Origin: Giardia intestinalis
Lineage: Eukaryota
DNA length: 64,000 nt
Assembly (NCBI GenBank): GCA_000002435.2
Contig: CM018793.1
Direction: 5' to 3' (one strand)
Of this stretch, positions 3,365 through 55,501 are shown piece after piece. A model generated the notes under the pieces. That model ran no database searches. It was not told the DNA's origin and was given only the letters and a program-made list of their open reading frames with translations. Position 1 is the first letter of the stretch. Each line of letters starts with the position of its first letter. The position numbers were made by a program, and so were the translations under genes.

Positions 3365-3681
3365 CTATGTGCCTCCTTTATTTTCTGCGTGCGTCACCTT
3401 TTTTTATTTTGGCGCAATTTTCAAAAACCGATACCCAGACCACTCTGGACGTTTCACTGATGTACTATCGTTATTAGCAATCACATAGGGACCGCCGTAT
3501 AGTTTTCTGTTCACTAAGCAATTTCTATTAGCCCTAATTAGGTTCTTTTAACCGATGGATGTATTCTTCTTTCCTTGCTGGCCATCTTATTTAGTATATT
3601 CGCCCGCTATTTCCCCTCCTTGGCACAGGCATATACGCCCTTAAAATATCAAACGTCAGGGTGCCGTAAATCACTTTAAAA

Positions 3682-5634: not shown

Positions 5635-5644
5635 TCAGGAAAAG

Positions 5645-10783: not shown

Positions 10784-11172
10784 TGGCCACTCTGTTTTTG
10801 TTTTTTAAATTTTCTTCATCTAAATTGCGAGCAATGAAAAAGAAGATGGTGATAACGACTATGCGCTCTTGCTATTCTGCCAGGACAACTTTGTAGCTAC
10901 GCGGATCACAGAGCAGTTTATCACCTCCTGCTGCAGTTCCGTCCAGCGCTGTCCATGATCTGCTAAAGGTTTAAAAAGCTTTTAGAAACCACATCGAATT
11001 ATCTTCGCCCTACAAATCTACCAATTGCCGTCTTTTTTAAAATCTTTGGCGATTCCATAAAAATTCCGGGGGCCAGTAACGTAGAAGCTCGGCTATATGG
11101 ACGTAAAGTCTTAAATTTCTTTTACGCCATTTTGCAATTCATAAAATTATCAAGTTTGCCTTGGTGCGGTGC

Positions 11173-31366: not shown

Positions 31367-31853
31367 TGAGCTGTGTTCTCTGTTTAATTTTGTTAAAATT
31401 GAAGACGCATGCAGGGCGGCTTTACTTTATGCCTCTGTATGTTTAGTGAGCGCATACTCTACCCGCAACACAGAATGTACTTATTGGCAATTAGTTAGCT
31501 TTCCCTTTCGAGGATGTTAGTCATTGTCATAAGGGTGTCTTTTGGTCTTCACTAGAAAAATTGGCAGATAGCGAGCTACTTGGTTGTTGCAAGTAACTAC
31601 TCAGCTAATAAGCTTATTATATAGAGCTATCAAACCAACTCGAGAACGTTGCGTGTCTCCATTCTTATTCATGAAGATTCAGAGACAACTAGATGGGTCA
31701 TAGATATAGCCTAGAGGAACTCTTGTTAGTTGTCGAGGGACAAGGTTTCGCCCTAGGCCATGGCCCCTTACATGCGGCGCCCTGCCGCTCTCGCCAGAAG
31801 GTGCGTCGATGCTCCGGGGTGGGGCCTTGAGATATAGTGTAACACATGGGCGC

Positions 31854-31860
31854 GTTTACT
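31854..31860 (-). promoter_or_regulatory. Polyadenylation signal AGTAAAC for the 3'-terminal VSP unit A
   Basis: The minus-strand sequence after the TGA (31870-31868) is ctcagGTAGTAAACgcgcc, a consensus AGTRAAY signal. Confidence 0.6.
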
Positions 31861-31867
31861 ACCTGAG

Positions 31868-34800
31868 TCACGCCTTCCCCCTGCAGAGGAACCACCAGCA
31901 GAGGAAGCCCACGAGGCCCCCCACGACAGCGATGACAGCCACGGAGATCCCTGCTATGGCACCAGTACTGAGGCCGCTCTTGTTGACGCTTCCGCCGGTG
32001 TTGTCGCCAGTGCCGTCGCCCATCACGAAGCACATGAACGCACCGGTGGATGACACCGTGCACTGCCTGCACCCAGCGAGCCCCTCAGAGCACGGATTAC
32101 ACTTTGTCCCAGCACTCTGCGGTTTGTAATATCCAGTGCTGCATGTAGCACAGGCGTTAGCGTCGTTAGCAGCCGTGCATGTCTCGCAGCTAAGATGGCA
32201 CCTTTTATTGGAACAATCGCCATTATCAGCCGTTAGACCACTGGCACATTTTGTACATTTTCCTCCCTGCACTGTAGTACACACTTGCTTGCCAGGCTGT
32301 CTATCTGTCTGATAGCAACCGCCATCTTTGAAGAAGTAGTTATTTTCACATTGAGTGCATGCTCCATTACTCACCGTAGTGCAAAATCGTGTTCGCGTAT
32401 TGGCCGCACAGTTGCCATCCAGTGGTGCCTGTTGAGTGTTCTTGCACTTTGAGCAGTATGCAGTTCCTCCTATCTGAGCCCCACACTCTGCGCATCCATC
32501 GTTTGTAGAACTCACGCTGCACTGGTTCATGCACGTGCCCCCATTGGCAGGAGTATCAGCATCTGTATACTGAAGCATCCTCCCAGCAGGACAAGCCGTA
32601 CACTTATCAGCGCCCTCACCCTTGCACTCTACGCACGCATCGTTGCACTTCTTGCACTTTCTGTCAGTGTCATTTCCGTAGTAGCCCTTGAGGGTCGTGC
32701 AGTCAGATACGCATTGACTGGTTGGGGTGAGGTAGTACTCAGACAGACACTTTGTACAGACCTCCTTATCGGCACCTTCACTGGTGCACTCCAAACAGTG
32801 CTCTGTGTTACAGTTACTGATTGGTTGGCATTCAGTCGATTCAGTATTAGGTTGGAGTCCTTCGTTGCACTCGCACACTTGGCTATCCTGTCCGGTGGCC
32901 TTGGGGGTAGAGTTAGCAGGGCAACTAGCAACGCACGACTTTCTGTTGAGACCAAAGATGGTCTTCGTATCAGTCGTACACGTCTTACAAACCACTCCGT
33001 TGGCGCCTTTCTCACAAGTGGTGCAGTCAGTTGTTCCAGCCGACACACATGTATTGCACTCCTTTGCTTCTTCATCAACGTAGTGGGTTGCCGGACAACC
33101 AGCTGTGTCAACGCACGTGCCGGTTGTGGACTCGCCATCCTTCTTCAGGTACTTCTTGGTCCCAGACGTTTTACACAGGCTGCACTTCTGTTGCTCCTTG
33201 GCCACGCACACAGCGCAATTATCATCTGCACACGCGGTGCACTTCTTCTCGGTAGCGTCGATGAAGAAGCCCTCCTCATTAGTACACGCCTCTGCGCTAA
33301 CACAGCTGGGTGCATCGCCAGCTTTAAAGTAGAATCCATCAACACACTCCCCACATATATTGTCCACCACACAGCTCTTGCAATCACCCACAGAGCATGT
33401 CACACACCCACTACCACCCTTGTTGGGCTTCTTACCACTGTCACAGGCAGTACACACAGCGACAGTCATACCAGCTGTTGTTAGAGCTGTCGGGGCTGTG
33501 CACTGAGAGCAGCCATCTACTCCCACGTATGCCTTAGCGGTACCTTGAGGATCTACTAGTGTGCCAAGGGAGTTGCCACATGCCAATACAGACTGCTGAG
33601 CATTGGATGCCCCTGGTACCAGGAAGTACTTATTATTCTCATTAACAGCGGTACAGACACCGTTGGCTGCTGTCTTGCACATGGACTTACCCGGCTGAGT
33701 TGACACACTATAGCAGCCTCCCATGTACAAGAAGTATCCTGTAGTACATGATGTACATGTATGATTGTTACAGTTATTCCCCTCTTTCTTTTCATTCCCA
33801 ACACATAGTCCATTAATGGGGAACTCACTGTCCTTTCCACAGTATGAACAGTAGTGATGCTCCTTCCCTGTGTTGTCGATCACTATTGCATCGCAGGCTC
33901 CAGAAGTACCACCACAAGCCGTGGGGTCTTCACAAGTCTTCTCACACGTGACCGCTCCTCCAGCCCCTACCTTCTTTTGGTAGTTCACCTTACAAGAGTC
34001 ACAAGTAAACGAGCCAGAGAGGGTGCACGTTGCACAGCCGGGCACTCCATCTGTCGGATCGTCGCATGGGACGCACTTCTTGGCCCCGTCATTCTTTAAG
34101 AAAAACCCTGGCTTGCACTTTTCACAGGTATCTATAGCGCCTCCTGGCCCGCACTTTCCGCAATCGCCAGCGCACGCAACGCATACGGCGGGGTTACCGT
34201 TCCCGCTGTCGTAGTAGCCATCGAGGCACGTCTTGCATTCTGGCTTAGCGCCGTTCTTGCTGCAGGTCCCGCAACCGGGGCTTCCCTTGTTATTATCTGT
34301 CTTGCTGCTATCGTTGCTACATAGTATGCATTCGGCATCTCCGTCGCTCAAGAAGTTCTCACCAGTTGCTCCGCTTTGAGTGCAGGTGCCGGCGTCTATA
34401 CACGTAGTCGTCCCGTCGGCCTCTTCCTTGACTATCTTAGCTCCATTACATGCCGTGCACTTTGGGCCCCCAGTTGCCGGGTTGTACTCACACGTGGTGC
34501 AATCAGTTATTGCAGACGCCTTGCAGGTCATTGTCACAGGGTCAGCATAAGTGTTTCCAGTGCATCCATCACTATTCACGCATGCATTATCCTTCAGGAA
34601 CGTATTTCCCTTACAAGAGGTACACTGGGTCTCTGTAGTCTCACAGGTCAGACAGGACTGATCACACTTCTCACATGTCTGAGCGTTCTTATAGTATCCA
34701 TCTCTGCAGGTATCACACGTGGCCGCTCCTGGACTACCACTTGGTGCCGTACATGTGGCGCAGTTAGCCACCCCTGTATATCCATCTGCCCCATTGACAT

Positions 34801-34920
34801 CATGACAGAGGATGCACTCGCTACCCTTCTCTGGTGTTGCAGCCGGGTTCTTGAACAGGCCGTTATCTGCCTTACAAGCAGTGCACAGTCCTCCCTCAGC
34901 CTTTGTGCATATCTCACTCC
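31868..34920 (-). CDS. VSP unit A: variant-specific surface protein-like cassette, ~1016 codons, intact ORF but no ATG or signal peptide
   Basis: Many CXXC motifs, GGCY motif (LYMGGCY), transmembrane helix [24 protein letters not shown] and the invariant tail CRGKA followed by TGA. The ORF track starts it at 34771 with a GTG. The frame stays open upstream to TGATAG..TGG AGT GAG ATA TGC (..WSEICTKAEGGLCTACKADNGLFKNPAATPEKGSECILCHDVNGADGYTGVANCATC). This is the 3'-most unit of the array and has a unique 3' flank. Confidence 0.85.
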
Positions 34921-34973
34921 ACTATCATACTATCACCCTCTATCACACCATTGTACAGCATTCACTACCCAAG
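34921..34973 (-). repeat. Inter-cassette spacer A|B
   Basis: Minus-strand sense: TGA cttggGTAGTGAATGctgtacaatggtGTGATAGagggTGATAGtaTGATAGtggagtgag|ATATGC. It holds the poly(A) signal AGTGAAT, TAGTGA, and three TGATAG heptamers that give stops in all three frames. Confidence 0.8.
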
Positions 34974-36836
34974 TCACGCCTTCCCCCTGCACACGAACCA
35001 CCAGCAGAGGAAGCCCACGAGGCCCCCCACGACAGCGATGACAGCGACGGAGATCCCTGCTATGGCACCAGTACTGAGGCCGCTTCTGTTGCCCCCGCTG
35101 GGCTTGGTGGACACGCACGCCTCACCCTCCAGCCTGTAGTCGTCCCCGCACTGGCCGCACTTGTTCTCCTCGCTGCACCTGACGCACCCGTCGATATTGC
35201 AGGCGATGCACTTCGTTCCGTCTGTGTTCGGCCTCTGGTCTTTACTGGTACAGGCCTCGCACTTATCGCCTGCTCCACAGTGCGAGCATCCGTCAACGGT
35301 ACATGCGAAGCACCCGCTCCCAGCCAGGTTGGGCTTGTTGTTGTTGGTACACGCTGTACACACAGCAGCAGTCATACCAGTCTCAGACAGAGCTGTTGGG
35401 GCCGTGCATGCCGAACAGCCATCTACCCCCACATATGCCTTAGAGGTATCACCAGTGCCTACTAGTGTGCCAAGGGAGTTGCTACATGCCAATACAGACT
35501 GATTCTGATTGGTTGCCCCAGGGACTATGAAGTACCTATTGTTGGCATTAACAGCAGTACAGACACCGTTGGCTGCTGTCTTGCACATATGTTGTCCAGG
35601 TACTGTATCAACCTTGTAACAACCTCCCATATACAAGAAGTAGTTGTTAGTGCATTGTGTACATACACCTTGATCACATTGATTATTTGCTTTAGCACTA
35701 TTACACTTCCCATCTATAGGATACGTATTAGCTTCTCCACAGTATGAGCAATAATGATGCTCTACACCCTTATCATCAATCACTATTGCATCGCAGGCAC
35801 CAGAAGTTCCTCCACAGGCAGTATCATCTTCACAGATCTTGGTGCATGTGACAGAGCCAGTACTGCCCTCCTTGCGATAGTTAGGCTTACAGTCAGTGCA
35901 CTTGAAAGCACCGTTGTTAGAGCAGACACTGCAGCCTTCGCGACCCTTATCGTCTACGCTATCGCATGGGACGCACTTCTTCCCCTGTTGATCTGTAGTA
36001 GTTACTAAGAAGTATCCAGTCTTGCAGGTTTCACACTTATTTGGATCACCAGCAACAGAGCATGTGGCACAGTTATCACCACACTTGTCTGTACATGTAC
36101 TAGTACCACTATCAAAGAAGTATCCATCGAGACAGGCTGAGCAGGTTGGATTGTCACTTCCTGTTTTCGTACATGTCTTGCAGTTGGCCTTTCCTTCGTT
36201 ACCAAGAGTTGAATCTGTCACATCACTACAAAGAGCACACGTTTTGTCCTCCTTCATAAATAAGGCCTCGTCAGCGCCCTCGCATCCTTCAAGCGTCTTC
36301 GCCACGCAGGTCGATGTCCCGTCGAGGGCCGTCCTGGGGGTCTTATTGGTCCCGCAGTTAGTGCACTTCGGCTTCCCCGTGGCCTTGTCGAAGGAGCATG
36401 CCGTGCACTCTGCGTGTATCGTACTACATGCCTTGCATGTTCCCGACTCCGGGTCAGCATAAGTGTTTCCATCGCATCCAGTATCTTGTACACATTGATT
36501 ACTCTTCAGGTACTTCCCCTCTGGGCACGATGTACAATGATTCTGACCACTTCCATCGCAGGTCAGACAAGCGTCATTACATTTGGTACATGTCTGAGAG
36601 TTCTTGTAGTATCCATCTTGGCACTCTGTACACGTGGCAGGTCCTGGACTACTGTCTGACTTGGTACACTGTGCGCAGTTAGCCACCCCTGTATATCCAT
36701 CTGCCCCATTGACATCATGACAGAGGATGCACTCACTACCAGGCTTCTGAGGTGTAACTGGGTTCTTGAACAGGCCGTTATCTGCTTTACAAGCAGTGCA
36801 CAGTCCTCCCTCAGCCTTTGTGCATATCTCACTCCA
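34974..36836 (-). CDS. VSP unit B: short-type VSP-like cassette, ~620 codons, no ATG or signal peptide
   Basis: Ends ..[47 protein letters not shown]-rich with a GGCY motif. Near-identical to unit C, with ~7 aa differences. The frame is open upstream of the track's GTG 'start' to the spacer stops. Confidence 0.85.
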   Translation of the reverse strand, partial: WSEICTKAEGGLCTACKADNGLFKNPVTPQKPGSECILCHDVNGADGYTGVANCAQCTKSDSSPGPATCTECQDGYYKNSQTCTKCNDACLTCDGSGQNHCTSCPEGKYLKSNQCVQDTGCDGNTYADPESGTCKACSTIHAECTACSFDKATGKPKCTNCGTNKTPRTALDGTSTCVAKTLEGCEGADEALFMKEDKTCALCSDVTDSTLGNEGKANCKTCTKTGSDNPTCSACLDGYFFDSGTSTCTDKCGDNCATCSVAGDPNKCETCKTGYFLVTTTDQQGKKCVPCDSVDDKGREGCSVCSNNGAFKCTDCKPNYRKEGSTGSVTCTKICEDDTACGGTSGACDAIVIDDKGVEHHYCSYCGEANTYPIDGKCNSAKANNQCDQGVCTQCTNNYFLYMGGCYKVDTVPGQHMCKTAANGVCTAVNANNRYFIVPGATNQNQSVLACSNSLGTLVGTGDTSKAYVGVDGCSACTAPTALSETGMTAAVCTACTNNNKPNLAGSGCFACTVDGCSHCGAGDKCEACTSKDQRPNTDGTKCIACNIDGCVRCSEENKCGQCGDDYRLEGEACVSTKPSGGNRSGLSTGAIAGISVAVIAVVGGLVGFLCWWFVCRGKA

Positions 36837-36908
36837 CTATCATACTATCATCACACTATCACCCTCTATCACACACTATCACCCATTGTACAGCATTCAC
36901 TACCCAAG
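36837..36908 (-). repeat. Inter-cassette spacer B|C (expanded)
   Basis: Same family as A|B, with extra (G)TGATAG copies: ..caatgGGTGATAGTGTGTGATAGAGGGTGATAGTGTGATGATAGTATGATAGtggagtgag. Confidence 0.8.
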
Positions 36909-38771
36909 TCACGCCTTCCCCCTGCACACGAACCACCAGCAGAGGAAGCCCACGAGGCCCCCCACGACAGCGATGACAGCGACGGAGATCCCTGCTATGG
37001 CACCAGTACTGAGGCCGCTTCTGTTGCCCCCGCTGGGCTTGGTGGACACGCACGCCTCACCCTCCAGCCTGTAGTCGTCCCCACACTGGCCGCACTTGTT
37101 CTCCTCGCTGCACCTGACGCACCCGTCGATATTGCAGGCGATGCACTTCGTTCCGTCTGTGTTCGGCCTCTGGTCTTTACTGGTACAGGCCTCGCACTTA
37201 CCGCCTGCTCCACAGTGCGAGCATCCACTAACGGTACATGGGAAGCACCCGCTCCCAGCCAGGTTGGGCTTGTTGTTGTTGGTACACGCTGTACACACAG
37301 CAGCAGTCATACCAGTCTCAGATGGAGCTGCTGGGGCCGTACATGCCGAACAGCCATCTACCCCCACATATGCCTTAGAGGTATCACCAGTGCCTACTAG
37401 TGTGCCAAGGGAGTTGCTACATGCCAATACAGACTGATTCTGATTGGTTGCCCCAGGGACTATGAAGTACCTATTGTTGGCATTAACAGCAGTACAGACA
37501 CCGTTGGCTGCTGTCTTGCACATATGTTGTCCAGGTACTGTATCAACCTTGTAACAACCTCCCATATACAAGAAGTAGTTGTTAGTGCATTGTGTACATA
37601 CACCTTGATCACATTGATTATTTGCTTTAGCACTATTACACTTCCCATCTATAGGATACGTATTAGCTTCTCCACAGTATGAGCAATAATGATGCTCTAC
37701 ACCCTTATCATCAATCACTATTGCATCGCAGGCACCAGAAGTTCCTCCACAGGCAGTATCATCTTCACAGATCTTGGTGCATGTGACAGAGCCAGTACTG
37801 CCCTCCTTGCGATAGTTAGGCTTACAGTCAGTGCACTTGAAAGCACCGTTGTTAGAGCAGACACTGCAGCCTTCGCGACCCTTATCGTCTACGCTATCGC
37901 ATGGGACGCACTTCTTCCCCTGTTGATCTGTAGTAGTTACTAAGAAGTATCCAGTCTTGCAGGTTTCACACTTATTTGGATCACCAGCAACAGAGCATGT
38001 GGCACAGTTATCACCACACTTGTCTGTACATGTACTAGTACCACTATCAAAGAAGTATCCATCGAGACAGGCTGAGCAGGTTGGATTGTCACTTCCTGTT
38101 TTCGTACATGTCTTGCAGTTGGCCTTTCCTTCGTTACCAAGAGTTGAATCTGTCACATCACTACAAAGAGCACACGTTTTGTCCTCCTTCATAAATAAGG
38201 CCTCGTCAGCGCCCTCGCATCCTTCAAGCGTCTTCGCCACGCAGGTCGATGTCCCGTCGAGGGCCGTCCTGGGGGTCTTATTGGTCCCGCAGTTAGTGCA
38301 CTTCGGCTTCCCCGTGGCCTTGTCGAAGGAGCATGCCGTGCACTCTGCGTGTATCGTACTACATGCCTTGCATGTTCCCGACTCCGGGTCAGCATAAGTG
38401 TTTCCATCGCATCCAGTATCTTGTACACATTGATTACTCTTCAGGTACTTCCCCTCTGGGCACGATGTACAATGATTCTGACCACTTCCATCGCAGGTCA
38501 GACAAGCTTCATTACATTTGACACATGTCTGAGAGTTCTTGTAGTATCCATCTTGGCACTCTGTACACGTGGCAGGTCCTGGACTACTGTCTGACTTGGT
38601 ACACTGTGCGCAGTTAGCCACCCCTGTATATCCATCTGCCCCATTGACATCATGACAGAGGATGCACTCACTACCAGGCTTCTGAGGTGTAACTGGGTTC
38701 TTGAACAGGCCGTTATCTGCTTTACAAGCAGTGCACAGTCCTCCCTCAGCCTTTGTGCATATCTCACTCCA
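36909..38771 (-). CDS. VSP unit C: short-type VSP-like cassette, tandem duplicate of B with a 1935-bp period
   Basis: Same architecture and CRGKA tail as B. Differs at a few codons (VKCNEAC vs TKCNDAC, APAAPSETG vs [27 protein letters not shown] vs [18 protein letters not shown]). No ATG after the last in-frame stop. Confidence 0.85.
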   Translation of the reverse strand, partial: WSEICTKAEGGLCTACKADNGLFKNPVTPQKPGSECILCHDVNGADGYTGVANCAQCTKSDSSPGPATCTECQDGYYKNSQTCVKCNEACLTCDGSGQNHCTSCPEGKYLKSNQCVQDTGCDGNTYADPESGTCKACSTIHAECTACSFDKATGKPKCTNCGTNKTPRTALDGTSTCVAKTLEGCEGADEALFMKEDKTCALCSDVTDSTLGNEGKANCKTCTKTGSDNPTCSACLDGYFFDSGTSTCTDKCGDNCATCSVAGDPNKCETCKTGYFLVTTTDQQGKKCVPCDSVDDKGREGCSVCSNNGAFKCTDCKPNYRKEGSTGSVTCTKICEDDTACGGTSGACDAIVIDDKGVEHHYCSYCGEANTYPIDGKCNSAKANNQCDQGVCTQCTNNYFLYMGGCYKVDTVPGQHMCKTAANGVCTAVNANNRYFIVPGATNQNQSVLACSNSLGTLVGTGDTSKAYVGVDGCSACTAPAAPSETGMTAAVCTACTNNNKPNLAGSGCFPCTVSGCSHCGAGGKCEACTSKDQRPNTDGTKCIACNIDGCVRCSEENKCGQCGDDYRLEGEACVSTKPSGGNRSGLSTGAIAGISVAVIAVVGGLVGFLCWWFVCRGKA

Positions 38772-38822
38772 CTATCATACTATCACCCTCTATCACACAT
38801 TGTACAGCATTCACTACCCAAG
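38772..38822 (-). repeat. Inter-cassette spacer C|D
   Basis: Same family: TGA cttgggtAGTGAATgctgtacaatgTGTGATAGagggTGATAGtaTGATAGtggagtgagat. Confidence 0.8.
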
Positions 38823-41800
38823 TCACGCCTTCCCCCTGCACACGAACCACCAGCAGAGGAAGCCCACGAGGCCCCCCACGACAGCGATGACAGCGACGGA
38901 GATCCCTGCTATGGCACCAGTACTGAGGCCGCTCTTGTTGACGCTTCCGCCGGTGTTGTCGCCAGTGCCGTCGCCCATCACGAAGCACATGAACGCACCG
39001 GTGGATGACACCGTGCACTGCCTGCACCCAGCGAGCCCCTCAGAGCACGGATTACACTTTGTCCCAGCACTCTGCGGTTTGTAATATCCAGTGCTGCATG
39101 TAGCACAGGCGTTAGCGTCGTTAGCAGCCGTGCATGTCTCGCAGCTAAGATGGCACCTTTTATTGGAACAATCGCCATTATCAGCCGTTAGACCACTGGC
39201 ACATTTTGTACATTTTCCTCCCTGCACTGTAGTACACACTTGCTTGCCAGGCTGTCTATCTGTCTGATAGCAACCGCCATCTTTGAGGAAGTAGTTATTT
39301 TCACATTGAGTGCATGCTCCATTACTCACCGTAGTGCAAAATCGTGTTCGCGTATTGGCCGCACAGTTGCCATCCAGTGGTGCCTGTTGAGTGTTCTTGC
39401 ACTTTGAGCAGTATGCAGTTCCTCCTATCTGAGCCCCACACTCTGCGCATCCATCGTTTGTAGAACTCACGCTGCACTGGTTCATGCACGTGCCCCCATT
39501 GGCAGGAGTATCAGCATCTGTATACTGAAGCATCCTCCCAGCAGGACAAGCCGTACACTTATCAGCGCCCTCACCCTTGCACTCTACGCACGCATCGTTG
39601 CACTTCTTGCACTTTCTGTCAGTGTCATTTCCGTAGTAGCCCTTGAGGGTCGTGCAGTCAGATACGCATTGACTGGTTGGGGTGAGGTAGTACTCAGACA
39701 GACACTTTGTACAGACCTCCTTATCGGCACCTTCACTGGTGCACTCCAAACAGTGCTCTGTGTTACAGTTACTGATTGGTTGGCATTCAGTCGATTCAGT
39801 ATTAGGTTGGAGTCCTTCGTTGCACTCGCACACTTGGCTATCCTGTCCGGTGGCCTTGGGGGTAGAGTTAGCAGGGCAACTAGCAACGCACGACTTTCTG
39901 TTGAGACCAAAGATGGTCTTCGTATCAGTCGTACACGTCTTACAAACCACTCCGTTGGCGCCTTTCTCACAAGTGGTGCAGTCAGTTGTTCCAGCCGACA
40001 CACATGTATTGCACTCCTTTGCTTCTTCATCAACGTAGTGGGTTGCCGGACAACCAGCTGTGTCAACGCACGTGCCGGTTGTGGACTCGCCATCCTTCTT
40101 CAGGTACTTCTTGGTCCCAGACGTTTTACACAGGCTGCACTTCTGTTGCTCCTTGGCCACGCACACAGCGCAATTATCATCTGCACACGCGGTGCACTTC
40201 TTCTCGGTAGCGTCGATGAAGAAGCCCTCCTCATTAGTACACGCCTCTGCGCTAACACAGCTGGGTGCATCGCCAGCTTTAAAGTAGAATCCATCAACAC
40301 ACTCCCCACATATATTGTCCACCACACAGCTCTTGCAATCACCCACAGAGCATGTCACACACCCACTACCACCCTTGTTGGGCTTCTTACCACTGTCACA
40401 GGCAGTACACACAGCGACAGTCATACCAGCTGTTGTTAGAGCTGTCGGGGCTGTGCACTGAGAGCAGCCATCTACTCCCACGTATGCCTTAGCGGTACCT
40501 TGAGGATCTACTAGTGTGCCTAGGGGGTTACTACATGCCAACACGGACTGCTGAGCATTGGTTGCTTCTGGGACTACGAAGTACTTATTATTCTCACTAA
40601 CAGCTGTACAGACACCGTTGGCTGCTGTCTTGCACATGGACTTACCCGGCTGAGTTGACACACTATAGCAGCCTCCCATGTACAAGAAGTATCCTGTAGT
40701 ACATGATGTACATGTATGATTGTTACAGTTATTCCCCTCTTTCTTTTCATTCCCAACACATAGTCCATTAATGGGGAACTCACTGTCCTTTCCACAGTAT
40801 GAACAGTAGTGATGCTCCTTCCCTGTGTTGTCGATCACTATTGCATCGCAGGCTCCAGAAGTACCACCACAAGCCGTGGGGTCTTCACAAGTCTTCTCAC
40901 ACGTGACCGCTCCTCCAGCCCCTACCTTCTTTTGGTAGTTCACCTTACAAGAGTCACAAGTAAACGAGCCAGAGAGGGTGCACGTTGCACAGCCGGGCAC
41001 TCCATCTGTCGGATCGTCGCATGGGACGCACTTCTTGGCCCCGTCATTCTTTAAGAAAAACCCTGGCTTGCACTTTTCACAGGTATCTATAGCGCCTCCT
41101 GGCCCGCACTTTCCGCAATCGCCAGCGCACGCAACGCATACGGCGGGGTTACCGTTCCCGCTGTCGTAGTAGCCATCGAGGCACGTCTTGCATTCTGGCT
41201 TAGCGCCGTTCTTGCTGCAGGTCCCGCAACCGGGGCTTCCCTTGTTATTATCTGTCTTGCTGCTATCGTTGCTACATAGTATGCATTCGGCATCTCCGTC
41301 GCTCAAGAAGTTCTCACCAGTTGCTCCGCTTTGAGTGCAGGTGCCGGCGTCTATACACGTAGTCGTCCCGTCGGCCTCTTCCTTGACTATCTTAGCTCCA
41401 TTACATGCCGTGCACTTTGGGCCCCCAGTTGCCGGGTTGTACTCACACGTGGTGCAATCAGTTATTGCAGACGCCTTGCAGGTCATTGTCACAGGGTCAG
41501 CATAAGTGTTTCCAGTGCATCCATCACTATTCACGCATGCATTATCCTTCAGGAACGTATTTCCCTTACAAGAGGTACAGTGGGTCGCCTCAGTCTCACA
41601 GGTGGCACAGTTCCCTTGGCACTTCTCACATGTCTGAGCGTTCTTATAGTATCCATCTCTGCAGGTATCACACGTGGCAGGTCCTGGACTACCACTTGGT
41701 GCCGTACATGTGGCGCAGTTAGCCACCCCTGTATATCCATCTGCCCCATTGACATCATGACAGAGGATGCACTCGCTACCCTTCTCTGGTGTTGCAGCCG

Positions 41801-41876
41801 GGTTCTTGAACAGGCCGTTATCTGCCTTACAAGCAGTGCACACTCCACTACTGGCCTTTGTGCATATCACACTCCA
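38823..41876 (-). CDS. VSP unit D: long-type VSP-like cassette, ~1017 codons, A-like, no ATG or signal peptide
   Basis: Begins ..WSVICTKASSGVCTACKADNGLFKNPAATPEKGSECILCHDVNGADGYTGVANCATCTAPSGSPGPATC. The track's 'M' is a GTG. The C-terminal ~590 aa appear identical to units A, F, K, N and the 3' part of I. CRGKA tail followed by TGA. Confidence 0.85.
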   Translation of the reverse strand, partial: WSVICTKASSGVCTACKADNGLFKNPAATPEKGSECILCHDVNGADGYTGVANCATCTAPSGSPGPATCDTCRDGYYKNAQTCEKCQGNCATCETEATHCTSCKGNTFLKDNACVNSDGCTGNTYADPVTMTCKASAITDCTTCEYNPATGGPKCTACNGAKIVKEEADGTTTCIDAGTCTQSGATGENFLSDGDAECILCSNDSSKTDNNKGSPGCGTCSKNGAKPECKTCLDGYYDSGNGNPAVCVACAGDCGKCGPGGAIDTCEKCKPGFFLKNDGAKKCVPCDDPTDGVPGCATCTLSGSFTCDSCKVNYQKKVGAGGAVTCEKTCEDPTACGGTSGACDAIVIDNTGKEHHYCSYCGKDSEFPINGLCVGNEKKEGNNCNNHTCTSCTTGYFLYMGGCYSVSTQPGKSMCKTAANGVCTAVSENNKYFVVPEATNAQQSVLACSNPLGTLVDPQGTAKAYVGVDGCSQCTAPTALTTAGMTVAVCTACDSGKKPNKGGSGCVTCSVGDCKSCVVDNICGECVDGFYFKAGDAPSCVSAEACTNEEGFFIDATEKKCTACADDNCAVCVAKEQQKCSLCKTSGTKKYLKKDGESTTGTCVDTAGCPATHYVDEEAKECNTCVSAGTTDCTTCEKGANGVVCKTCTTDTKTIFGLNRKSCVASCPANSTPKATGQDSQVCECNEGLQPNTESTECQPISNCNTEHCLECTSEGADKEVCTKCLSEYYLTPTSQCVSDCTTLKGYYGNDTDRKCKKCNDACVECKGEGADKCTACPAGRMLQYTDADTPANGGTCMNQCSVSSTNDGCAECGAQIGGTAYCSKCKNTQQAPLDGNCAANTRTRFCTTVSNGACTQCENNYFLKDGGCYQTDRQPGKQVCTTVQGGKCTKCASGLTADNGDCSNKRCHLSCETCTAANDANACATCSTGYYKPQSAGTKCNPCSEGLAGCRQCTVSSTGAFMCFVMGDGTGDNTGGSVNKSGLSTGAIAGISVAVIAVVGGLVGFLCWWFVCRGKA

Positions 41877-41939
41877 CTATCACCCTCTATCACCCATTAT
41901 CACACACTATCACACATTGTATAGCATTCACTACCTGAG
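41877..41939 (-). repeat. Inter-cassette spacer D|E
   Basis: TGA ctcaggtAGTGAATgctatacaatgTGTGATAGtgTGTGATAAtgggTGATAGagggTGATAGtggagtgtg. The last in-frame stop (TAG) is followed directly by W S V I C T K. Confidence 0.8.
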
Positions 41940-43691
41940 TCATGCCTTCCCTCTACATATGAACCACCAGCAGAGGAAGCCCACGAGGCCCCCCACGACA
42001 GCGATGACAGCCACGGAGATCCCTGCTATGGCACCAGTGCTGAGCCCGCTCCTGTTGGTGCTCATAGACACACACTTACCATTGTCTAGACTGTATCCAT
42101 CAACACACTCCCCACACACATCATCCACCACACAGCTCTTGCAGTCACTCACAGAGCACAGCACACACCCACTACCATCCCTGTTGGGCTTCTTACTACT
42201 GTCACAAGAGGTACACACAGCGACAGTCATACCAGCTGTTGTTAGAGCTGTTGGTGCTGTACACCGGGAGCAGCCATCCACCCCCACGTATGCCTTAGCA
42301 GTATTACCAGTACCTATTAGTGTGCCTAATGGGTTACCACATGCCAATACAGACTGATTCTGATTGGATGCTCCTGGTACTACGAAGTACTTATTACTTG
42401 CTGCTTCTGTGCATATCCCACTACTATCTGCTTTCGAGCACATGAAGCTACCAGGAGCCTTCTGAGTGCTATAACAACCTCCCATATAGAGGAAGTAGTT
42501 AGCAGCACATGATGTACATGTATGACTGTTACAGTTATTCCCGTTCTTTTGACTACTTTCAACACAGATGCCATCAATAGGGAACTTATTAGCCTCTCCA
42601 CAATAGGAACAGTAGTGCTTTGCATTGCCCTGATTATCAATCACTGTGGCATCACAAGAGCCAGCTGTCCCACCACAAGCAGTGGGGTCCTCGCAGGTCT
42701 TCTCTGTGCATGTATAGTTGTCTTGGTTTCCAGCGGGTTTTCTGTTAGGCTTGCACTTTGTGCACTTGAGGGATCCAGTACTGTTGTCACACTCGGCACA
42801 GCCCTCGATGCCATTATCGGTTTTGCTATCACAGGGGACACACTTTCCTGCTGGTTTTGCAACCTCAACGAGGAAGAACCCTGCCTTGCAGGTCAGGCAC
42901 TTATCCTCGGCAGTTTCAGCTGAGCATGTGGCACAGTTGTCGGCGCACTTGTCTGTACATGTCTTAGTATTTGTATTAAAGAAGTAGCCATCCAGACACT
43001 CTGAACAGACCGGTGGTTGTCCAGAAGCTTTAGCACATTTTTTACAGTTATCCTTTCCCTGATCGTTGCCAGACCCACTACTATCACTGCATAGATAACA
43101 GGCTGAGTCATCGTCTGCCTTGAAGTGATTCTCGTCTACGCAATCAGACGTAACAGTAACGCATGTCGTGGTGCCGTCGATGGCCGTCTTCACCTTCTTA
43201 TTGTTATTACAGGCGGTGCACTGGGGCTTACTGACGGTCGCATTGTACTCACACGTGGTGCAATCAGTTATTGCAGAATCCTTGCAGGTCATTGTCACAG
43301 GGTCAGCATAAGTGTTTCCAGTGCATCCATTATTATTCACGCATGACTTGTCAGTCTTCAGGTACTTCCCCTCTGGACACGATGTACACTGATTCGGACC
43401 ACTTCCATCGCAGGTCAGACAAGACTGATCACACTGCATACATACCAGAGAGTCCTTGTAGTATCCATCTTGGCAGGTATCACACGTGGCAGCCCCTGGA
43501 CTATTAGCTGGTGCCGTGCACTTGAGGCAATTAGCCACTCCCTTGTTCTCATTCGCTCCCGTGGCATCATGGCACAGGATGCACTCATTACCAGGGGTCA
43601 CTGTCGTAGCCTTGTTCTGGAATATGTACTGGTTATCTACCTTACAAGCAGTGCACACTCCATCACTGGCTGCTGTGCATATCACACTCCA
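41940..43691 (-). CDS. VSP unit E: short-type VSP-like cassette, ~583 codons, tail FICRGKA
   Basis: Begins ICTAASDGVCTACKVDNQYIFQNKATTVTPGNECILCHDATGANENKGVANC. Ends [29 protein letters not shown]...FICRGKA*. An AGTGAAT poly(A) signal follows 6 nt after the TGA. No in-frame ATG lies between the last spacer stop (TAG) and the coding start. Confidence 0.85.
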   Translation of the reverse strand, partial: WSVICTAASDGVCTACKVDNQYIFQNKATTVTPGNECILCHDATGANENKGVANCLKCTAPANSPGAATCDTCQDGYYKDSLVCMQCDQSCLTCDGSGPNQCTSCPEGKYLKTDKSCVNNNGCTGNTYADPVTMTCKDSAITDCTTCEYNATVSKPQCTACNNNKKVKTAIDGTTTCVTVTSDCVDENHFKADDDSACYLCSDSSGSGNDQGKDNCKKCAKASGQPPVCSECLDGYFFNTNTKTCTDKCADNCATCSAETAEDKCLTCKAGFFLVEVAKPAGKCVPCDSKTDNGIEGCAECDNSTGSLKCTKCKPNRKPAGNQDNYTCTEKTCEDPTACGGTAGSCDATVIDNQGNAKHYCSYCGEANKFPIDGICVESSQKNGNNCNSHTCTSCAANYFLYMGGCYSTQKAPGSFMCSKADSSGICTEAASNKYFVVPGASNQNQSVLACGNPLGTLIGTGNTAKAYVGVDGCSRCTAPTALTTAGMTVAVCTSCDSSKKPNRDGSGCVLCSVSDCKSCVVDDVCGECVDGYSLDNGKCVSMSTNRSGLSTGAIAGISVAVIAVVGGLVGFLCWWFICRGKA

Positions 43692-43752
43692 CTATCACAC
43701 ATTATCACACTATCACCTTCTATCACACATTGTACAGCATTCACTACCTAAG
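43692..43752 (-). repeat. Inter-cassette spacer E|F
   Basis: Same family; plus strand atcacactccactatcacacattatcacactatcaccttctatcacacattgtacagcattcactacctaagtca. Confidence 0.75.
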
Positions 43753-46700
43753 TCACGCCTTCCCTCTACACACGAACCACCAGCAGAGGAAGCCCACGAG
43801 GCCCCCCACGACAGCGATGACAGCCACGGAGATCCCTGCTATGGCACCAGTACTGAGGCCGCTCTTGTTGACGCTTCCGCCGGTGTTGTCGCCAGTGCCG
43901 TCGCCCATCACGAAGCACATGAACGCACCGGTGGATGACACCGTGCACTGCCTGCACCCAGCGAGCCCCTCAGAGCACGGATTACACTTTGTCCCAGCAC
44001 TCTGCGGTTTGTAATATCCAGTGCTGCATGTAGCACAGGCGTTAGCGTCGTTAGCAGCCGTGCATGTCTCGCAGCTAAGATGGCACCTTTTATTGGAACA
44101 ATCGCCATTATCAGCCGTTAGACCACTGGCACATTTTGTACATTTTCCTCCCTGCACTGTAGTACACACTTGCTTGCCAGGCTGTCTATCTGTCTGATAG
44201 CAACCGCCATCTTTGAGGAAGTAGTTATTTTCACATTGAGTGCATGCTCCATTACTCACCGTAGTGCAAAATCGTGTTCGCGTATTGGCCGCACAGTTGC
44301 CATCCAGTGGTGCCTGTTGAGTGTTCTTGCACTTTGAGCAGTATGCAGTTCCTCCTATCTGAGCCCCACACTCTGCGCATCCATCGTTTGTAGAACTCAC
44401 GCTGCACTGGTTCATGCACGTGCCCCCATTGGCAGGAGTATCAGCATCTGTATACTGAAGCATCCTCCCAGCAGGACAAGCCGTACACTTATCAGCGCCC
44501 TCACCCTTGCACTCTACGCACGCATCGTTGCACTTCTTGCACTTTCTGTCAGTGTCATTTCCGTAGTAGCCCTTGAGGGTCGTGCAGTCAGATACGCATT
44601 GACTGGTTGGGGTGAGGTAGTACTCAGACAGACACTTTGTACAGACCTCCTTATCGGCACCTTCACTGGTGCACTCCAAACAGTGCTCTGTGTTACAGTT
44701 ACTGATTGGTTGGCATTCAGTCGATTCAGTATTAGGTTGGAGTCCTTCGTTGCACTCGCACACTTGGCTATCCTGTCCGGTGGCCTTGGGGGTAGAGTTA
44801 GCAGGGCAACTAGCAACGCACGACTTTCTGTTGAGACCAAAGATGGTCTTCGTATCAGTCGTACACGTCTTACAAACCACTCCGTTGGCGCCTTTCTCAC
44901 AAGTGGTGCAGTCAGTTGTTCCAGCCGACACACATGTATTGCACTCCTTTGCTTCTTCATCAACGTAGTGGGTTGCCGGACAACCAGCTGTGTCAACGCA
45001 CGTGCCGGTTGTGGACTCGCCATCCTTCTTCAGGTACTTCTTGGTCCCAGACGTTTTACACAGGCTGCACTTCTGTTGCTCCTTGGCCACGCACACAGCG
45101 CAATTATCATCTGCACACGCGGTGCACTTCTTCTCGGTAGCGTCGATGAAGAAGCCCTCCTCATTAGTACACGCCTCTGCGCTAACACAGCTGGGTGCAT
45201 CGCCAGCTTTAAAGTAGAATCCATCAACACACTCCCCACATATATTGTCCACCACACAGCTCTTGCAATCACCCACAGAGCATGTCACACACCCACTACC
45301 ACCCTTGTTGGGCTTCTTACCACTGTCACAGGCAGTACACACAGCGACAGTCATACCAGCTGTTGTTAGAGCTGTCGGGGCTGTGCACTGAGAGCAGCCA
45401 TCTACTCCCACGTATGCCTTAGCGGTACCTTGAGGATCTACTAGTGTGCCTAGGGGGTTACTACATGCCAACACGGACTGCTGAGCATTGGATGCCCCTG
45501 GTACCAGGAAGTACTTATTATTCTCATTAACAGCGGTACAGACACCGTTGGCTGCTGTCTTGCACATATGTTGTCCAGGTGGACTCTGAGTGCTATAACA
45601 ACCACCCATATATAAGAAATATCCTGTAGTACAAGACTCACAGACATGGTTGTTACAAGTATTACTTTGAGCCTCACTAGCACAGAGACCATCTATAGGA
45701 TACTTACTGCTATCCCCACAGTATGAACAGTAGTGCTTTGTGGTGCCCTGATCATCTATTATCATGGCATCACAAGCACCAGAGGTACCCCCACAGGCAG
45801 TATCATCTTCACATACCTTTGTACATGTAACAGGACTGGTACCACTCTGCTTGCGATAGTTCACCTTACAGTCAGTACACTTGAAAGTACTGGCCTCCAT
45901 TGTGCATTGGGAGCACCCCTCGATGCCCCCATTGTTTGTGTCATCGCAGGCGAAGCATTCTCCAGGAGTGCTACTGACCTTCAGGAAGAACCCGGTCTTG
46001 CAGGTTTGGCATTTGGTCTTGTCAGCTTTTTCAGAACATGTGGCACAGTTAGCACCACAGGCCTCACACGTGGCGGCAGGGCCATTTCCTTCTTTGATAT
46101 ACCCTTCGAGGCATTCTATGCATTCTGGTTTCTGACTTTGCTGCTTAGTACATGTCTTGCAGCCGGCAATGCCTTTGTTCTTTTGTTCTGGATCCGACGC
46201 TGCGGGATCACTGCACAAACGACACACGTTGTCTTCGGTCATAAAGAGACCGTTATCAGCTCCTTGACACCCGGCGTAGTTCTTCGCCACGCAGGTCGAG
46301 GTTCCATCAAGGGTCGTCCTGGGGATCTTACTGTTATCACAAGCTGTGCACTTCGGCTTCTTGGTAGTCGAATCAACTTCACACTGGGTACATGCTTGAT
46401 CTATCGTGTTGCAGTCCCTACAAGTTCCCGACTCTGGGTCAGCATAAGTGTTTCCAGTGCACTCATTACTATTCACGCATGCATTATCCTTCAGGAACGT
46501 ATTTCCCTTACAAGAGGTACACTGGGTCGCCGACGTCTCACAGGTCAGGCAAGAGTCGTTGCACTTCTCACATGCGCCGTTACTATTTAGAAAGTATCCC
46601 TCTGTGCATGCAGTACACGTGGCAGCCCCCTTGTTACTGTCTGGCGCTGTGCATGTGGCGCAGCTCTCCACTCCCTTATATCCATTCGCTCCCGTGGCAT

Positions 46701-46825
46701 CATGACAGAGTATGCACTCCCCACCAGGGGTCACCTTGTCTGCCCCATTCTGGAATATGTACTGACTATCTGTATTACAAGCAGTGCACACTCCATCACT
46801 GGCTGCTGTGCATATCACACTCCAC
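43753..46825 (-). CDS. VSP unit F: long-type VSP-like cassette, ~1023 codons
   Basis: Unique N-terminal half (ICTAASDGVCTACNTDSQYIFQNGADKVTPGGECILCHDATGANGYKGVESCATCTAPDSNKGAATC..). It shares NCATCSEKADKTKCQTCKTGFFL with unit J. The C-terminal ~590 aa are the shared long-type module. CRGKA tail followed by TGA. Confidence 0.85.
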
Positions 46826-46885
46826 TATCACACATTATCACACTATCACCTTCTATCACACATTGTACAGCATTCACTACCTAAG
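46826..46885 (-). repeat. Inter-cassette spacer F|G
   Basis: Same family (plus-strand tatcacac / ctatcacc heptamers, attcactacctaag, then tca). Confidence 0.75.
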
Positions 46886-48619: not shown

Positions 48620-48680
48620 CTATCACACTATCACCCTCTATTACCCATTATCACACATTGTATAGCATTCACTACCCAAG
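48620..48680 (-). repeat. Inter-cassette spacer G|H
   Basis: Same family. Confidence 0.75.
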
Positions 48681-50435: not shown

Positions 50436-50486
50436 CTATCATACTATCACCCTCTATCACACATTGTACAGCATTCACTACCCAAG
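50436..50486 (-). repeat. Inter-cassette spacer H|I
   Basis: Same family. Confidence 0.75.
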
Positions 50487-53400: not shown

Positions 53401-53538
53401 CGCTCCCTTGATATCAGAGCACAGGATGCACTCATTACCAGGGGTCACTGTCGTAGCCTTGTTCTGGAATATGTACTGGTTATCTACCTTACAAGCAGTG
53501 CACACTCCATCACTGGCTGCTGTGCATATCACACTCCA
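50487..53538 (-). pseudogene. VSP unit I: mosaic VSP-like cassette disrupted by two 1-nt deletions in C-runs
   Basis: The ORF track splits it into 52966..53532, 51089..53284 and 50487..51152. Relative to paralogues, cagttccctcgcatgg (~53277) should be cagttcccctcgcatgg, and gagcccacac (~51091) should be gagccccacac. In composition, the first ~38 aa are E-like and the next part G-like. It switches to B/C-like at ..GTCMACSTI|HAECTACSFDKATGKPKC, then to the A/F-like 3' module at CKTAANGVCTAVN|ENNKYFLVPGASNAQQSV. Ends CRGKA followed by TGA. Confidence 0.75.
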
Positions 53539-53599
53539 CTATCACACATTATCACACTATCACCCTCTATCACACATTGTACAGCATTCACTACCCAAG
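53539..53599 (-). repeat. Inter-cassette spacer I|J
   Basis: Same family. Confidence 0.75.
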
Positions 53600-55450: not shown

Positions 55451-55501
55451 CTATCATACTATCACCTTCTATCACACATTGTACAGCATTCACTACCTAA
55501 G
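55451..55501 (-). repeat. Inter-cassette spacer J|K
   Basis: Same family. Confidence 0.75.

What the first reader, a model, noticed from the sequence alone, without database searches (positions are those of the whole stretch)
34921..34973. Conserved 50-72 bp spacer fuses stop, poly(A) signal and a three-frame stop element
Directly after every CRGKA-TGA comes c(t/c)(t/c)(a/g)gGTAGTGAATGct(g/a)tacaatg, in which the AGTGAAT poly(A) signal overlaps TAG and TGA. A variable number of (G)TGATA(G/A) heptamers follows, then GTGGAGTG(A/T)G at the next cassette. Heptamers 7 or 10 nt apart step through the reading frames. In the A|B spacer I confirmed TAG/TGA stops in all three frames. Any read-through from the upstream unit, in any frame, is terminated before the next cassette. 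The heptamer copy number varies between spacers and is expanded in B|C and L|M, like a microsatellite. The same element recurs at all 13 junctions.
Basis: seen in the sequence. Interest (0 to 1): 0.6.

Follow-up and report, generated by a model that had tools for sequence, protein, structure and literature searches.

The report
Junction spacer in silent Giardia VSP array
The flagged 53 bases are one of 13 near-identical joints between promoter-less surface-antigen gene copies in a known Giardia pseudogene array: a known family-specific poly(A) signal followed by a small unstable repeat, whose many stop codons look like a by-product of its sequence, not a purpose-built insulator.

Summary
The window is Giardia intestinalis WB. 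On the minus strand, 31868 to beyond 64000 is a head-to-tail array of 5'-truncated VSP cassettes (psiVSPs), a known arrangement.

The element is real. All 13 internal junctions read CRGKA-TGA, C(T/C)(T/C)(A/G)GGTAGTGAATGCT(G/A)TACAATG, then 3-5 TGATAR cores, then GTGGAGTG(A/T)GATA-TGC.

Corrections:
- The repeat unit is 8 or 10 nt, not 7 or 10.
- The 14th, terminal CRGKA-TGA has AGTAAAC and no repeats.
- GTGGAGTGAG is coding sequence (W-S-E-I-C, matching residues 103-107 of an intact WB VSP).

The first 17 nt are the published VSP extended poly(A) signal. All 13 spacers close all three frames, but so do 61-79% of composition-matched shuffles. Closure fails at one array junction in another sample and at an assemblage B junction. 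Seven other VSP 3' ends examined (one shown complete) keep the poly(A) signal but lack the repeat. If the signal is used, the repeat lies beyond the predicted cleavage site.

Best reading: a unit joint spread by tandem duplication, with a slippage-prone repeat. The cassettes have no initiator, start codon or signal peptide, and probably serve only as recombination donors. The repeat tract is a small detail I did not find described in the papers searched.

The parts
31868..64000 (-). Head-to-tail array of 13 complete VSP cassettes (A to M) and one partial cassette (N). All lack a start codon and signal peptide, so this is a psiVSP linear array. It continues beyond the window.
   Evidence: Searches give the layout. 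Pfam PF03302 (VSP) matches with E-values of 1e-82 and 1e-38. Flanking genes are exact matches to Giardia intestinalis WB proteins.
34910..34973 (-). B|A junction, the flagged spacer: 64 nt from the base after TGA to the base before the first Cys codon.
34958..34974 (-). VSP extended poly(A) signal ACTTGGGTAGTGAATGC. The AGTGAA hexamer is at 34966-34961. TAG (34967-34965) and TGA (34964-34962) are in frame with the CRGKA stop (34976-34974).
   Evidence: for the sequence. The published motif is ACUUAGRUAGURAAYRY.
34922..34956 (-). Imperfect tandem repeat of 8- and 10-nt units with core (G)TGATAG, 3 cores here. The last TAG (34924-34922) is in frame with cassette A.
31871..34921 (-). Cassette A: an uninterrupted frame of 1017 codons, from WSEICTKAEGGLCTAC to CRGKA. 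The first Met is at residue 130.
31852..31868 (-). Terminal extended poly(A) signal ACTCAGGTAGTAAACGC (AGTAAA at 31860-31855) after the last cassette. It is followed by unique sequence with no repeat tract.
36825..36908 (-). C|B spacer, 84 nt, 5 TGATAR cores (expanded).
38760..38822 (-). D|C spacer, 63 nt, 3 cores.
41865..41939 (-). E|D spacer, 75 nt, 4 cores. It carries the CTCAGG and GCTATACA variants.
43680..43752 (-). F|E spacer, 73 nt, 4 cores.
46813..46885 (-). G|F spacer, 73 nt, 4 cores.
48608..48680 (-). H|G spacer, 73 nt, 3 TGATAR cores plus one TAATAG variant.
50424..50486 (-). I|H spacer, 63 nt, 3 cores.
53527..53599 (-). J|I spacer, 73 nt, 4 cores.
55439..55501 (-). K|J spacer, 63 nt, 3 cores.
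58562..58624 (-). L|K spacer, 63 nt, 3 cores.
60472..60553 (-). M|L spacer, 82 nt, 3 exact cores plus degenerate ones (expanded).
62369..62429 (-). N|M spacer, 61 nt, 3 cores with 8-nt spacing.

Best explanation
The segment is a unit joint in a known kind of locus, a Giardia intestinalis WB psiVSP linear array.

Each array unit has three parts:
- A VSP coding region cut off at about codon 103. It has no initiator, no ATG, no signal peptide and none of the first ~100 residues. It begins at the conserved W/G-S-E-I-C motif.
- The family's normal 3' end: the transmembrane segment, CRGKA, the stop and the extended poly(A) signal.
- A short imperfect tandem repeat of 8- and 10-nt units with core GTGATAG.

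How it behaves (inferred):
- The array grew by tandem duplication or unequal crossing-over. It is kept similar by exchange within the conserved block of roughly 200 nt that spans the transmembrane segment, the signal, the repeat and the cassette start.
- The repeat gains and loses units by slippage or unequal exchange.
- The high stop density comes from the TGATAG core. Its practical effect is that each cassette frame is closed immediately upstream, so the cassette cannot be translated in place.
- The extended poly(A) signal could end any transcript at each unit.
- The cassettes matter, if at all, as silent donors for segmental recombination into intact VSP genes.

Shown here: the anatomy, the recurrence, the length variation, the truncation point, the mosaic structure and the open frames. 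Inferred: the slippage mechanism, use of the poly(A) signal and the donor role.
For: - Organism and locus.
- The 14 CRGKA ends and 13 conserved junctions.
- Repeat periods of 8 and 10 nt.
- 10 of the 13 complete cassettes keep one open frame of 577-1023 codons, running from the last spacer TAG to CRGKA, with no nearby ATG.
- Cassette residue 1 (WSEICT) aligns to residue 103 of the intact WB VSP P0042.
- Pfam VSP match.
- The junction sits in a conserved block. Pairwise identity is 0.88-0.96 in the last ~100 coding nt, 0.96 in the signal, 0.43-0.74 in the length-variable repeat and 0.96 at the cassette start.
- Near-identical cassettes have spacers of different lengths.
- Cassettes are mosaics with exchange breakpoints inside the coding region.
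- dN/dS among intact cassettes is 0.2-0.63, from small counts.
- The same signal-plus-repeat module precedes cassettes truncated at different points in other samples (L008, L009).
- The module shows up in old WB gene models that start MLYSDSDS....
- Literature: linear arrays have intergenic regions of about 60 bp that contain stops, and their downstream members lack the initiator. psiVSPs sit in arrays without start codons. The extended signal is tied to VSPs and psiVSPs.
Against: - Nothing here shows the mutational mechanism directly.
- The module sits upstream of cassettes with different truncation points, and it is absent from the terminal and non-array VSP ends examined. Both facts also fit a functional junction element.
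- The stop-preserving variants TGATAA and TAATAG occur, which selection for stops would also predict.
- Only 5 junctions outside the window and a handful of non-array genes could be examined. The rest of the WB chromosomes could not be retrieved.
- No expression or 3'-end data were available for this array.
Confidence: 0.7

Rival explanations
1. One reading: the repeat is a selected three-frame stop element. It ends any read-through translation from the upstream unit before the next cassette.
For: All 13 window spacers and the two longest outside ones have stops in all three frames. Stop density is about 1.7-1.9 times the shuffle expectation. The variants TGATAA and TAATAG keep both stops.
Against: - 61-79% of shuffles also close all frames.
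- The 13 copies are not independent.
- The tract lies beyond the predicted cleavage site of the signal just upstream.
- The in-frame series TGA...TAG TGA already exists in the signal, in the other VSP ends examined as well.
- The downstream cassettes have no start codon anyway.
- The L009 junction at 1879 leaves the downstream cassette's frame open through the whole spacer and 145 nt upstream of the stop.
- The assemblage B junction has one frame without a stop and no tract.
- The terminal and non-array VSP ends examined lack the tract.
Confidence: 0.08
2. The repeat is a recombination element comparable to the 70-bp repeats upstream of silent VSG genes in Trypanosoma brucei. On this view it is a fragile or homologous tract marking the 5' edge of each silent cassette, where array rearrangement or gene conversion begins.
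For: - It lies immediately upstream of every silent cassette, whatever the truncation point. This includes a 70-residue mini-cassette.
- It varies in length between otherwise 99%-identical units.
- It is absent from the terminal and non-array VSP ends examined.
- The cassettes show abundant segmental exchange.
Against: - The four VSP 5' regions with an initiator that were examined have no such tract upstream, so there is no homologous partner at a recipient gene (L006, L010, L011, L013).
- The mosaic breakpoints seen are inside the cassettes, not at the spacers.
- The assemblage B head-to-tail junction has no tract.
- No break-related or protein-binding evidence exists.
Confidence: 0.12
3. An account of origin only: the start of the tract (ACAATGTGTGATAG) is a decayed VSP initiator plus the first codons (CAATGTTGTTGATAG, coding M-L-L-I-A). 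Each unit would then descend from a full gene that abutted the upstream poly(A) signal and later lost codons ~5-102.
For: Alignment ACAATG-TG-TGATAG against ACAATGTTGTTGATAG gives 14 matches with two 1-nt gaps. Nominal shuffle p is 0.004-0.015 against two assemblage E (P15) VSP starts. The published initiator is PyAATGTT.
Against: - The comparison is post hoc.
- It is not significant against two other VSP starts with an initiator, or for the L009-type spacers, which read TATAGTGTG at that position.
- In other WB arrays CAATG sits at a different place within the tract.
- The segment also reads as one more degenerate repeat unit.
Confidence: 0.1
4. The G/T-rich tract is a downstream auxiliary element that strengthens cleavage at the AGTGAA signal.
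For: Its position, starting about 10 nt after the hexamer, and its GU-rich composition resemble metazoan downstream elements.
Against: GU-rich downstream motifs are not enriched and are in fact depleted at Giardia cleavage sites, and CstF orthologues are doubtful. The terminal and non-array VSP ends examined, including one shown complete, have no such tract.
Confidence: 0.04

Closest known systems
Giardia psiVSP linear arrays (Adam et al. 2010, PMC2996952; Xu et al. 2020, PMC7000408; also in G. muris, PMC7641422)
   Same: Head-to-tail VSP copies with intergenic regions of about 60 bp that contain stops. Downstream members have no PyAATGTT initiator, no proper start codon and no signal peptide. 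There is evidence of recombination among members. The window is such an array in the WB reference genome.
   Different: The papers I could read give spacer length and the lack of an initiator, but not the spacer's internal anatomy. The 8/10-nt GTGATAG repeat tract and its length variation were not found in the searchable literature.
VSP extended polyadenylation signal ACUUAGRUAGURAAYRY (Rodriguez-Walker et al., bioRxiv 10.1101/2022.03.07.483299; AGURAA signal, PMC9014877)
   Same: The first 17 nt after and including the last base of the stop codon match the motif, at the usual distance from the stop.
   Different: 8 of the 13 window junctions have G instead of A at motif position 5 (CTTGGG), and one has CTCAGG. 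Every internal junction examined uses AGTGAAT. The terminal cassette and the seven other VSP ends examined outside the window use AGTAAAC.
70-bp repeats upstream of silent VSG genes in Trypanosoma brucei (from general knowledge)
   Same: A short, length-variable repeat directly upstream of each silent, promoter-less surface-antigen cassette in an array.
   Different: No matching repeat lies upstream of the four VSP genes with an initiator that were examined. The exchange breakpoints seen are inside the cassettes. There is no evidence that the tract starts recombination. The resemblance is one of layout only.
Silent cassette arrays of bacterial antigenic variation, such as Borrelia vls and Neisseria pilS (from general knowledge)
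   Same: Promoter-less, 5'-truncated cassettes that stay open-reading and are joined head to tail by short conserved joints.
   Different: This is a eukaryote. Each Giardia cassette keeps a complete 3' end with its own stop and poly(A) signal. No dedicated expression site is known.

Membership tests
Giardia VSP (complete gene) | Cysteine-rich CXXC ectodomain that matches Pfam PF03302 | tested here: met
   Cassettes A and B match PF03302 with E-values of 1e-82 and 1e-38. Cassette B is 60% identical to the intact WB VSP P0042 over 620 residues.
Giardia VSP (complete gene) | Conserved C-terminal transmembrane segment and a CRGKA tail followed by a stop | tested here: met
   The window has 14 CRGKA-stop ends. 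The alignment runs through ...[13 protein letters not shown].
Giardia VSP (complete gene) | Extended poly(A) signal ACUUAGRUAGURAAYRY a few nt after the stop | tested here: met
   It is present at all 14 ends. Four junctions read CTTAGG, as in the motif; eight junctions read CTTGGG; one junction and the terminal end read CTCAGG.
Giardia VSP (complete gene) | Initiator PyAATGTT containing the start codon, followed by a signal peptide | tested here: not met
   No cassette has an ATG near its start. The frames open at WSE/WSV straight after a TAG, and the first Met is at residue 48-283. Cassette residue 1 aligns to residue 103 of P0042. The spacer reads CAATGTG, CAATGGG or CAATGGT, never CAATGTT. 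These are therefore psiVSPs, not VSPs.
psiVSP linear array | Head-to-tail VSP copies separated by about 60 bp, with downstream members lacking an initiator or proper start codon | tested here: met
   The spacers are 61-84 nt and there are 13 junctions.
   All 13 of 13 spacers in the window are closed in every frame, but 61-79% of shuffles are too. The L009 junction at 1879 and the assemblage B junction L012 each leave one frame without a stop.
70-bp-repeat-like recombination boundary | The repeat lies upstream of each silent cassette | tested here: met
   This holds at 13 window junctions and at junctions in L008 and L009.
70-bp-repeat-like recombination boundary | The same repeat lies upstream of the expressed or recipient gene, providing homology | tested here: not met
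   No tract lies upstream of the VSP starts with an initiator in L006, L010, L011 and L013.
70-bp-repeat-like recombination boundary | Conversion tracts begin in the repeat | tested here: inconclusive
   Exchange breakpoints among the cassettes fall inside the coding regions, around positions 1000, 1300 and 1540. No donor-to-expressed-gene events could be examined.
GU-rich downstream polyadenylation element | The element is enriched downstream of genuine cleavage sites in this organism | not testable with these tools
   The literature reports no enrichment, and a depletion, in Giardia. No 3'-end data were available for this locus.

The most novel reading that the evidence does not exclude
The GTGATAG repeat tract is a functional cis-element of assemblage A psiVSP arrays. 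On this reading it is a fragile or protein-bound tract where units are duplicated, deleted or copied, so it sets the 5' boundary of donor cassettes much as the trypanosome 70-bp repeats do. That would explain why the same module precedes cassettes truncated at different points.
Probability: 0.1. Interest if true: 0.6.

Novelty: already known. Interest (0 to 1): 0.2.

Why it matters
Whether Giardia diversifies its surface antigens by recombination from silent arrays is still open. That process would add to the epigenetic or RNA-based switching already proposed. The joints between the cassettes are where any cis-acting signal for it would be expected.

This analysis shows that the joint is mostly a known family signature, the extended poly(A) signal, plus an unstable short repeat. 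The evidence does not call for a special insulator function.

More useful for the open question are two other observations. Most cassettes keep long open frames, and they are clear mosaics of one another. Both fit a donor role. The repeat tract could also serve as a practical length marker for tracking array rearrangements between isolates.

Tried and rejected
1. Repeat tract as a decayed signal-peptide coding region. Rejected as the main account: the cassette starts at residue 103 of an intact VSP, not just after the signal peptide. The resemblance to the initiator is weak and post hoc.

2. Repeat tract derived from the downstream cassette start (AGTGAGATA). Rejected because the same tract precedes cassettes with quite different starts in L009.

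3. Structured RNA. The minimum free energies are no better than shuffles on either strand (z from -0.56 to +0.36). The window has no Rfam family match.

4. Splice signals (GTATG...TAG). Considered from general knowledge of Giardia intron consensus sequences. No branch-point or 3' motif is visible, and I did not pursue it.

5. Downstream GU-rich polyadenylation element. The Giardia 3'-end literature argues against it.

6. Retrieving the rest of the WB chromosome to find the array head and other arrays:
   - Look-ups for the intact WB VSPs P0041 and P0042 found no record.
   - Exact look-ups of ten window cassette ORFs were not in the collection, possibly because they were submitted with V rather than M as first residue.
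   - Several look-ups returned single VSP genes, not arrays.

7. A literature search for the TGATAG motif with Giardia and VSP returned four papers whose titles and abstracts do not concern array spacers. I did not open them.

Full report
**Where the window comes from.** Four proteins encoded at 230-16628 are exact matches to Giardia intestinalis WB clone C6 proteins: GL50803_004644, two Ankyrin repeat protein 1 entries and the STU2-like protein. They lie on a 4,018,654-bp chromosome record. Short-read assemblies of the same region all stop about 530 nt beyond the 4893-residue gene at 16685-31366. That is the edge of the repeated region described next.

**The locus.**
- On the minus strand, 31868 to beyond 64000 is a head-to-tail series of VSP-like units.
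- The window holds 14 CRGKA-stop ends. Units are either about 1.8-1.9 kb or about 3.1 kb long.
- Cassettes A and B match Pfam PF03302 (VSP) with E-values of 1e-82 and 1e-38.
- 10 of the 13 complete cassettes keep a single open frame of 577-1023 codons, from the last TAG of the upstream spacer to CRGKA. None has an ATG near its start; the first Met is at residue 48-283. Three cassettes are broken.
- Aligned to the intact WB VSP P0042 (708 residues, MLLIALHLVTSILA...), cassette B starts at P0042 residue 103. Both read W-S-E-I-C-T there.
The cassettes lack the initiator, the start codon, the signal peptide and about 100 N-terminal residues.

This arrangement is already published:
- Adam et al. 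2010 describe 'linear arrays' with intergenic regions averaging 60 bp. Their downstream members lack the PyAATGTT initiator, and the authors hypothesise that they are unexpressed recombination cassettes.
- Xu et al. [quoted passage not shown]
- G. muris has similar arrays.

**Checking the observation.**
- The flagged segment, read on the minus strand, is TGA | CTTGGGTAGTGAATGCT | GTACAATGGTGTGATAGAGGGTGATAGTATGATAG | TGG AGT GAG ATA TGC.
Lengths are 48-71 nt to GTGGAGTG and 61-84 nt to the first Cys codon. Each has 3-5 TGATAR cores.
- The cores are 8 or 10 nt apart, not 7 or 10. Tandem Repeats Finder reports periods of 8 and 10.
- GTGATAG occurs 39 times in the window against 9.9 expected. Of these, 32 are in the spacers.
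- The 14th end, the terminal cassette A at 31868, is different. It reads CTCAGGTAGTAAACGCGCCC followed by unique sequence.
- The expansions at B|C and L|M are real.
- Cassettes B, C and L are about 99% identical, yet their upstream spacers are 84, 63 and 82 nt long. The tract therefore changes length faster than the flanks accumulate substitutions.

**The first half of the spacer is a known signal.** Giardia uses AGURAA as its poly(A) signal. Cleavage is most often 13-15 nt downstream of it. All 136 WB VSPs and most psiVSPs carry an extended form, ACUUAGRUAGURAAYRY, a median of 6 nt after the stop. The window junctions match it, with CTTGGG in place of CTTAGG in 8 of 13. The TAG and TGA that overlap the hexamer are in frame with the CRGKA stop. 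The other VSP ends I examined show the same in-frame stops, as TAG TAA.

**Is three-frame closure special?**
- All 13 spacers close all three frames.
- For each distinct spacer, 61-79% of composition-preserving shuffles do the same. Stops are about 1.7-1.9 times denser than expected because of the TGATAG core.
- The 13 copies share descent and are not independent tests.
- In a contig from another sample (L009), the junction after the stop at 1879 has one TGATAG. It leaves the downstream cassette's frame open through the whole spacer and 145 nt upstream of the stop.
- An assemblage B head-to-tail junction (L012) has no tract and one frame without a stop.
- If the poly(A) signal is used, cleavage would fall near TACAATG and the tract would not be part of the mature RNA. 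This is an inference.

**Distribution of the tract.**
- The same signal-plus-repeat module occurs at five junctions in two other samples (L008, L009).
- In L009 it precedes cassettes that begin at different points: GLLFIGGCY..., and a 70-residue mini-cassette that holds only the last part of the ectodomain, the transmembrane segment and CRGKA.
- Old WB gene models from other arrays start MLYSDSDS(DS)AMWCGGDSDS.... That is the spacer translated from the ATG inside AGTGA-ATG, through GAT-AGT repeats.
- Eight terminal or non-array VSP 3' ends keep the extended signal but have no tract, and all use AGTAAAC. They are the window terminal end, L005, L006, two in L007, L010, L011 and L013. L010 is demonstrably complete, with an initiator and a signal peptide. 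Several of the others are truncated or frameshifted gene models.
- Every internal junction examined uses AGTGAAT.
- The four VSP 5' regions with an initiator have no tract upstream. They read CAATGTTGTTGATAGC (L006 and L011), CAATGTTGCTAACAGC (L013) and TAATGTTGTTAGC (L010).

**Context of conservation and exchange.**
- The junction lies inside a conserved block. Mean pairwise identity is 0.88-0.96 over the last ~100 coding nt, 0.96 over the signal and 0.96 over ATAGTGGAGTGAGATATGCA. It drops to 0.43-0.74 only where the tract varies in length, and to 0.5-0.9 in the cassette 5' region.
- The cassettes are mosaics:
  - A and D are 98.4% identical over their full length.
  - B, C and L are about 99% identical.
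  - I joins a B-like 5' 1.5 kb (88.8%) to an A-like 3' 1.8 kb (99.4%).
  - A, D, F, I, K and N share their 3' 1.6-1.9 kb at 96-99.7%.
  - A and H share the 5' 1.65 kb at 92%.
- The exchange breakpoints therefore lie inside the cassettes, not at the spacers.
- dN/dS among intact cassettes is 0.2-0.63, from small counts. Together with the long open frames, this argues against free decay and fits the published donor-reservoir idea.

**Other tests.** The spacers show no RNA secondary structure beyond shuffles on either strand. The window has no Rfam match. GU-rich downstream elements are not a feature of Giardia cleavage sites. The start of the tract resembles a VSP initiator plus first codons: ACAATG-TG-TGATAG against ACAATGTTGTTGATAG, nominal p 0.004-0.015. 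The comparison is post hoc and fails for other starts and for the L009-type spacers.

**Conclusion.** The element is real and was accurately spotted. It is the unit joint of a known psiVSP array, made of the known VSP extended poly(A) signal plus a short unstable 8/10-nt repeat. The abundance of stops is best read as a by-product of the repeat core, so the insulator reading is not supported. Treating the tract as a recombination element remains possible but has little support. The repeat tract itself is a minor descriptive addition that I could not find in the searchable literature.

Noticed in passing
window 31868-64000, minus strand: The cassettes are clear mosaics of one another. For example, cassette I (50487-53599) joins a B/C/L-like 5' 1.5 kb (88.8% identity) to an A/D/N-like 3' 1.8 kb (99.4%). 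Six cassettes share their 3' 1.6-1.9 kb at 96-99.7% identity. The exchange breakpoints are inside the coding regions.
   Followed up: partly
window cassettes A-H, J and K (for example 31871-34921 and 34977-36836, minus strand): 10 of the 13 complete 'pseudogene' cassettes keep uninterrupted frames of 577-1023 codons. Pairwise dN/dS is 0.2-0.63, from small counts. That is not what freely decaying pseudogenes would show.
   Followed up: partly
window 31855-31860 compared with the 13 internal junctions; also loci L005, L006, L007, L010, L011, L013: The poly(A) hexamer variant splits cleanly by position. All 18 internal array junctions examined have AGTGAAT. The terminal cassette and all seven other VSP ends examined outside the window have AGTAAAC.
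   Followed up: partly
L009 1880-2147 (ENA ERZ27260139, contig k141_94899): A 70-residue mini-cassette holds only the last part of the ectodomain, the transmembrane segment and CRGKA. It is flanked on both sides by the same poly(A)-signal-plus-repeat spacer. Its frame is open through the upstream spacer.
   Followed up: partly
proteins P0040, P0043, P0046, P0048 and P0156 (old WB gene models XP_001703902, XP_001707663, XP_001706653, XP_001707667, XP_001705183): Their N-termini (MLYSDSDSAMWCGGDSDS... or similar) are translations of array spacers. Four of the five start at the ATG inside the poly(A) signal AGTGA-ATG. These old 'complete VSP' models are therefore artefacts of reading through a spacer.
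   Followed up: partly
window ~31895; loci L001-L004: Independent short-read assemblies of WB-like samples all end about 530 nt past the 4893-residue gene, at the 3' edge of the array. The array is collapsed or missing in short-read assemblies.
   Followed up: no
window 16685-31366, minus strand: A 4893-residue ORF lies immediately downstream of the array. It has no Pfam hit on record.
   Followed up: no
window 32629-33138, 39584-40093, 44514-45023, 51247-51756, 56263-56772 and 63188-63697 (minus strand); 32714-33484 and its copies (plus strand): Each long cassette carries a recurring 169-residue ATG ORF in another frame of the same strand, and most also carry a 256-277-residue ORF on the opposite strand. 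These are probably composition artefacts copied along with the repeat unit.
   Followed up: no
L006 ~9720-10000 and L011 ~1395-1630 (assemblage E, isolate P15): Two P15 VSP genes have an intact CAATGTT initiator and an MLLIA... signal peptide. One has an in-frame TAG and the other a frameshift further on, so they were annotated from an internal ATG. They are either recently disabled VSPs or sequencing errors.
   Followed up: no
window spacers, for example 34940-34954 (minus strand): The spacer segment ACAATG(G)TGTGATAG resembles the VSP initiator plus first codons (ACAATGTTGTTGATAG). Nominal p is 0.004-0.015, the comparison is post hoc, and it does not hold for all spacer types.
   Followed up: partly
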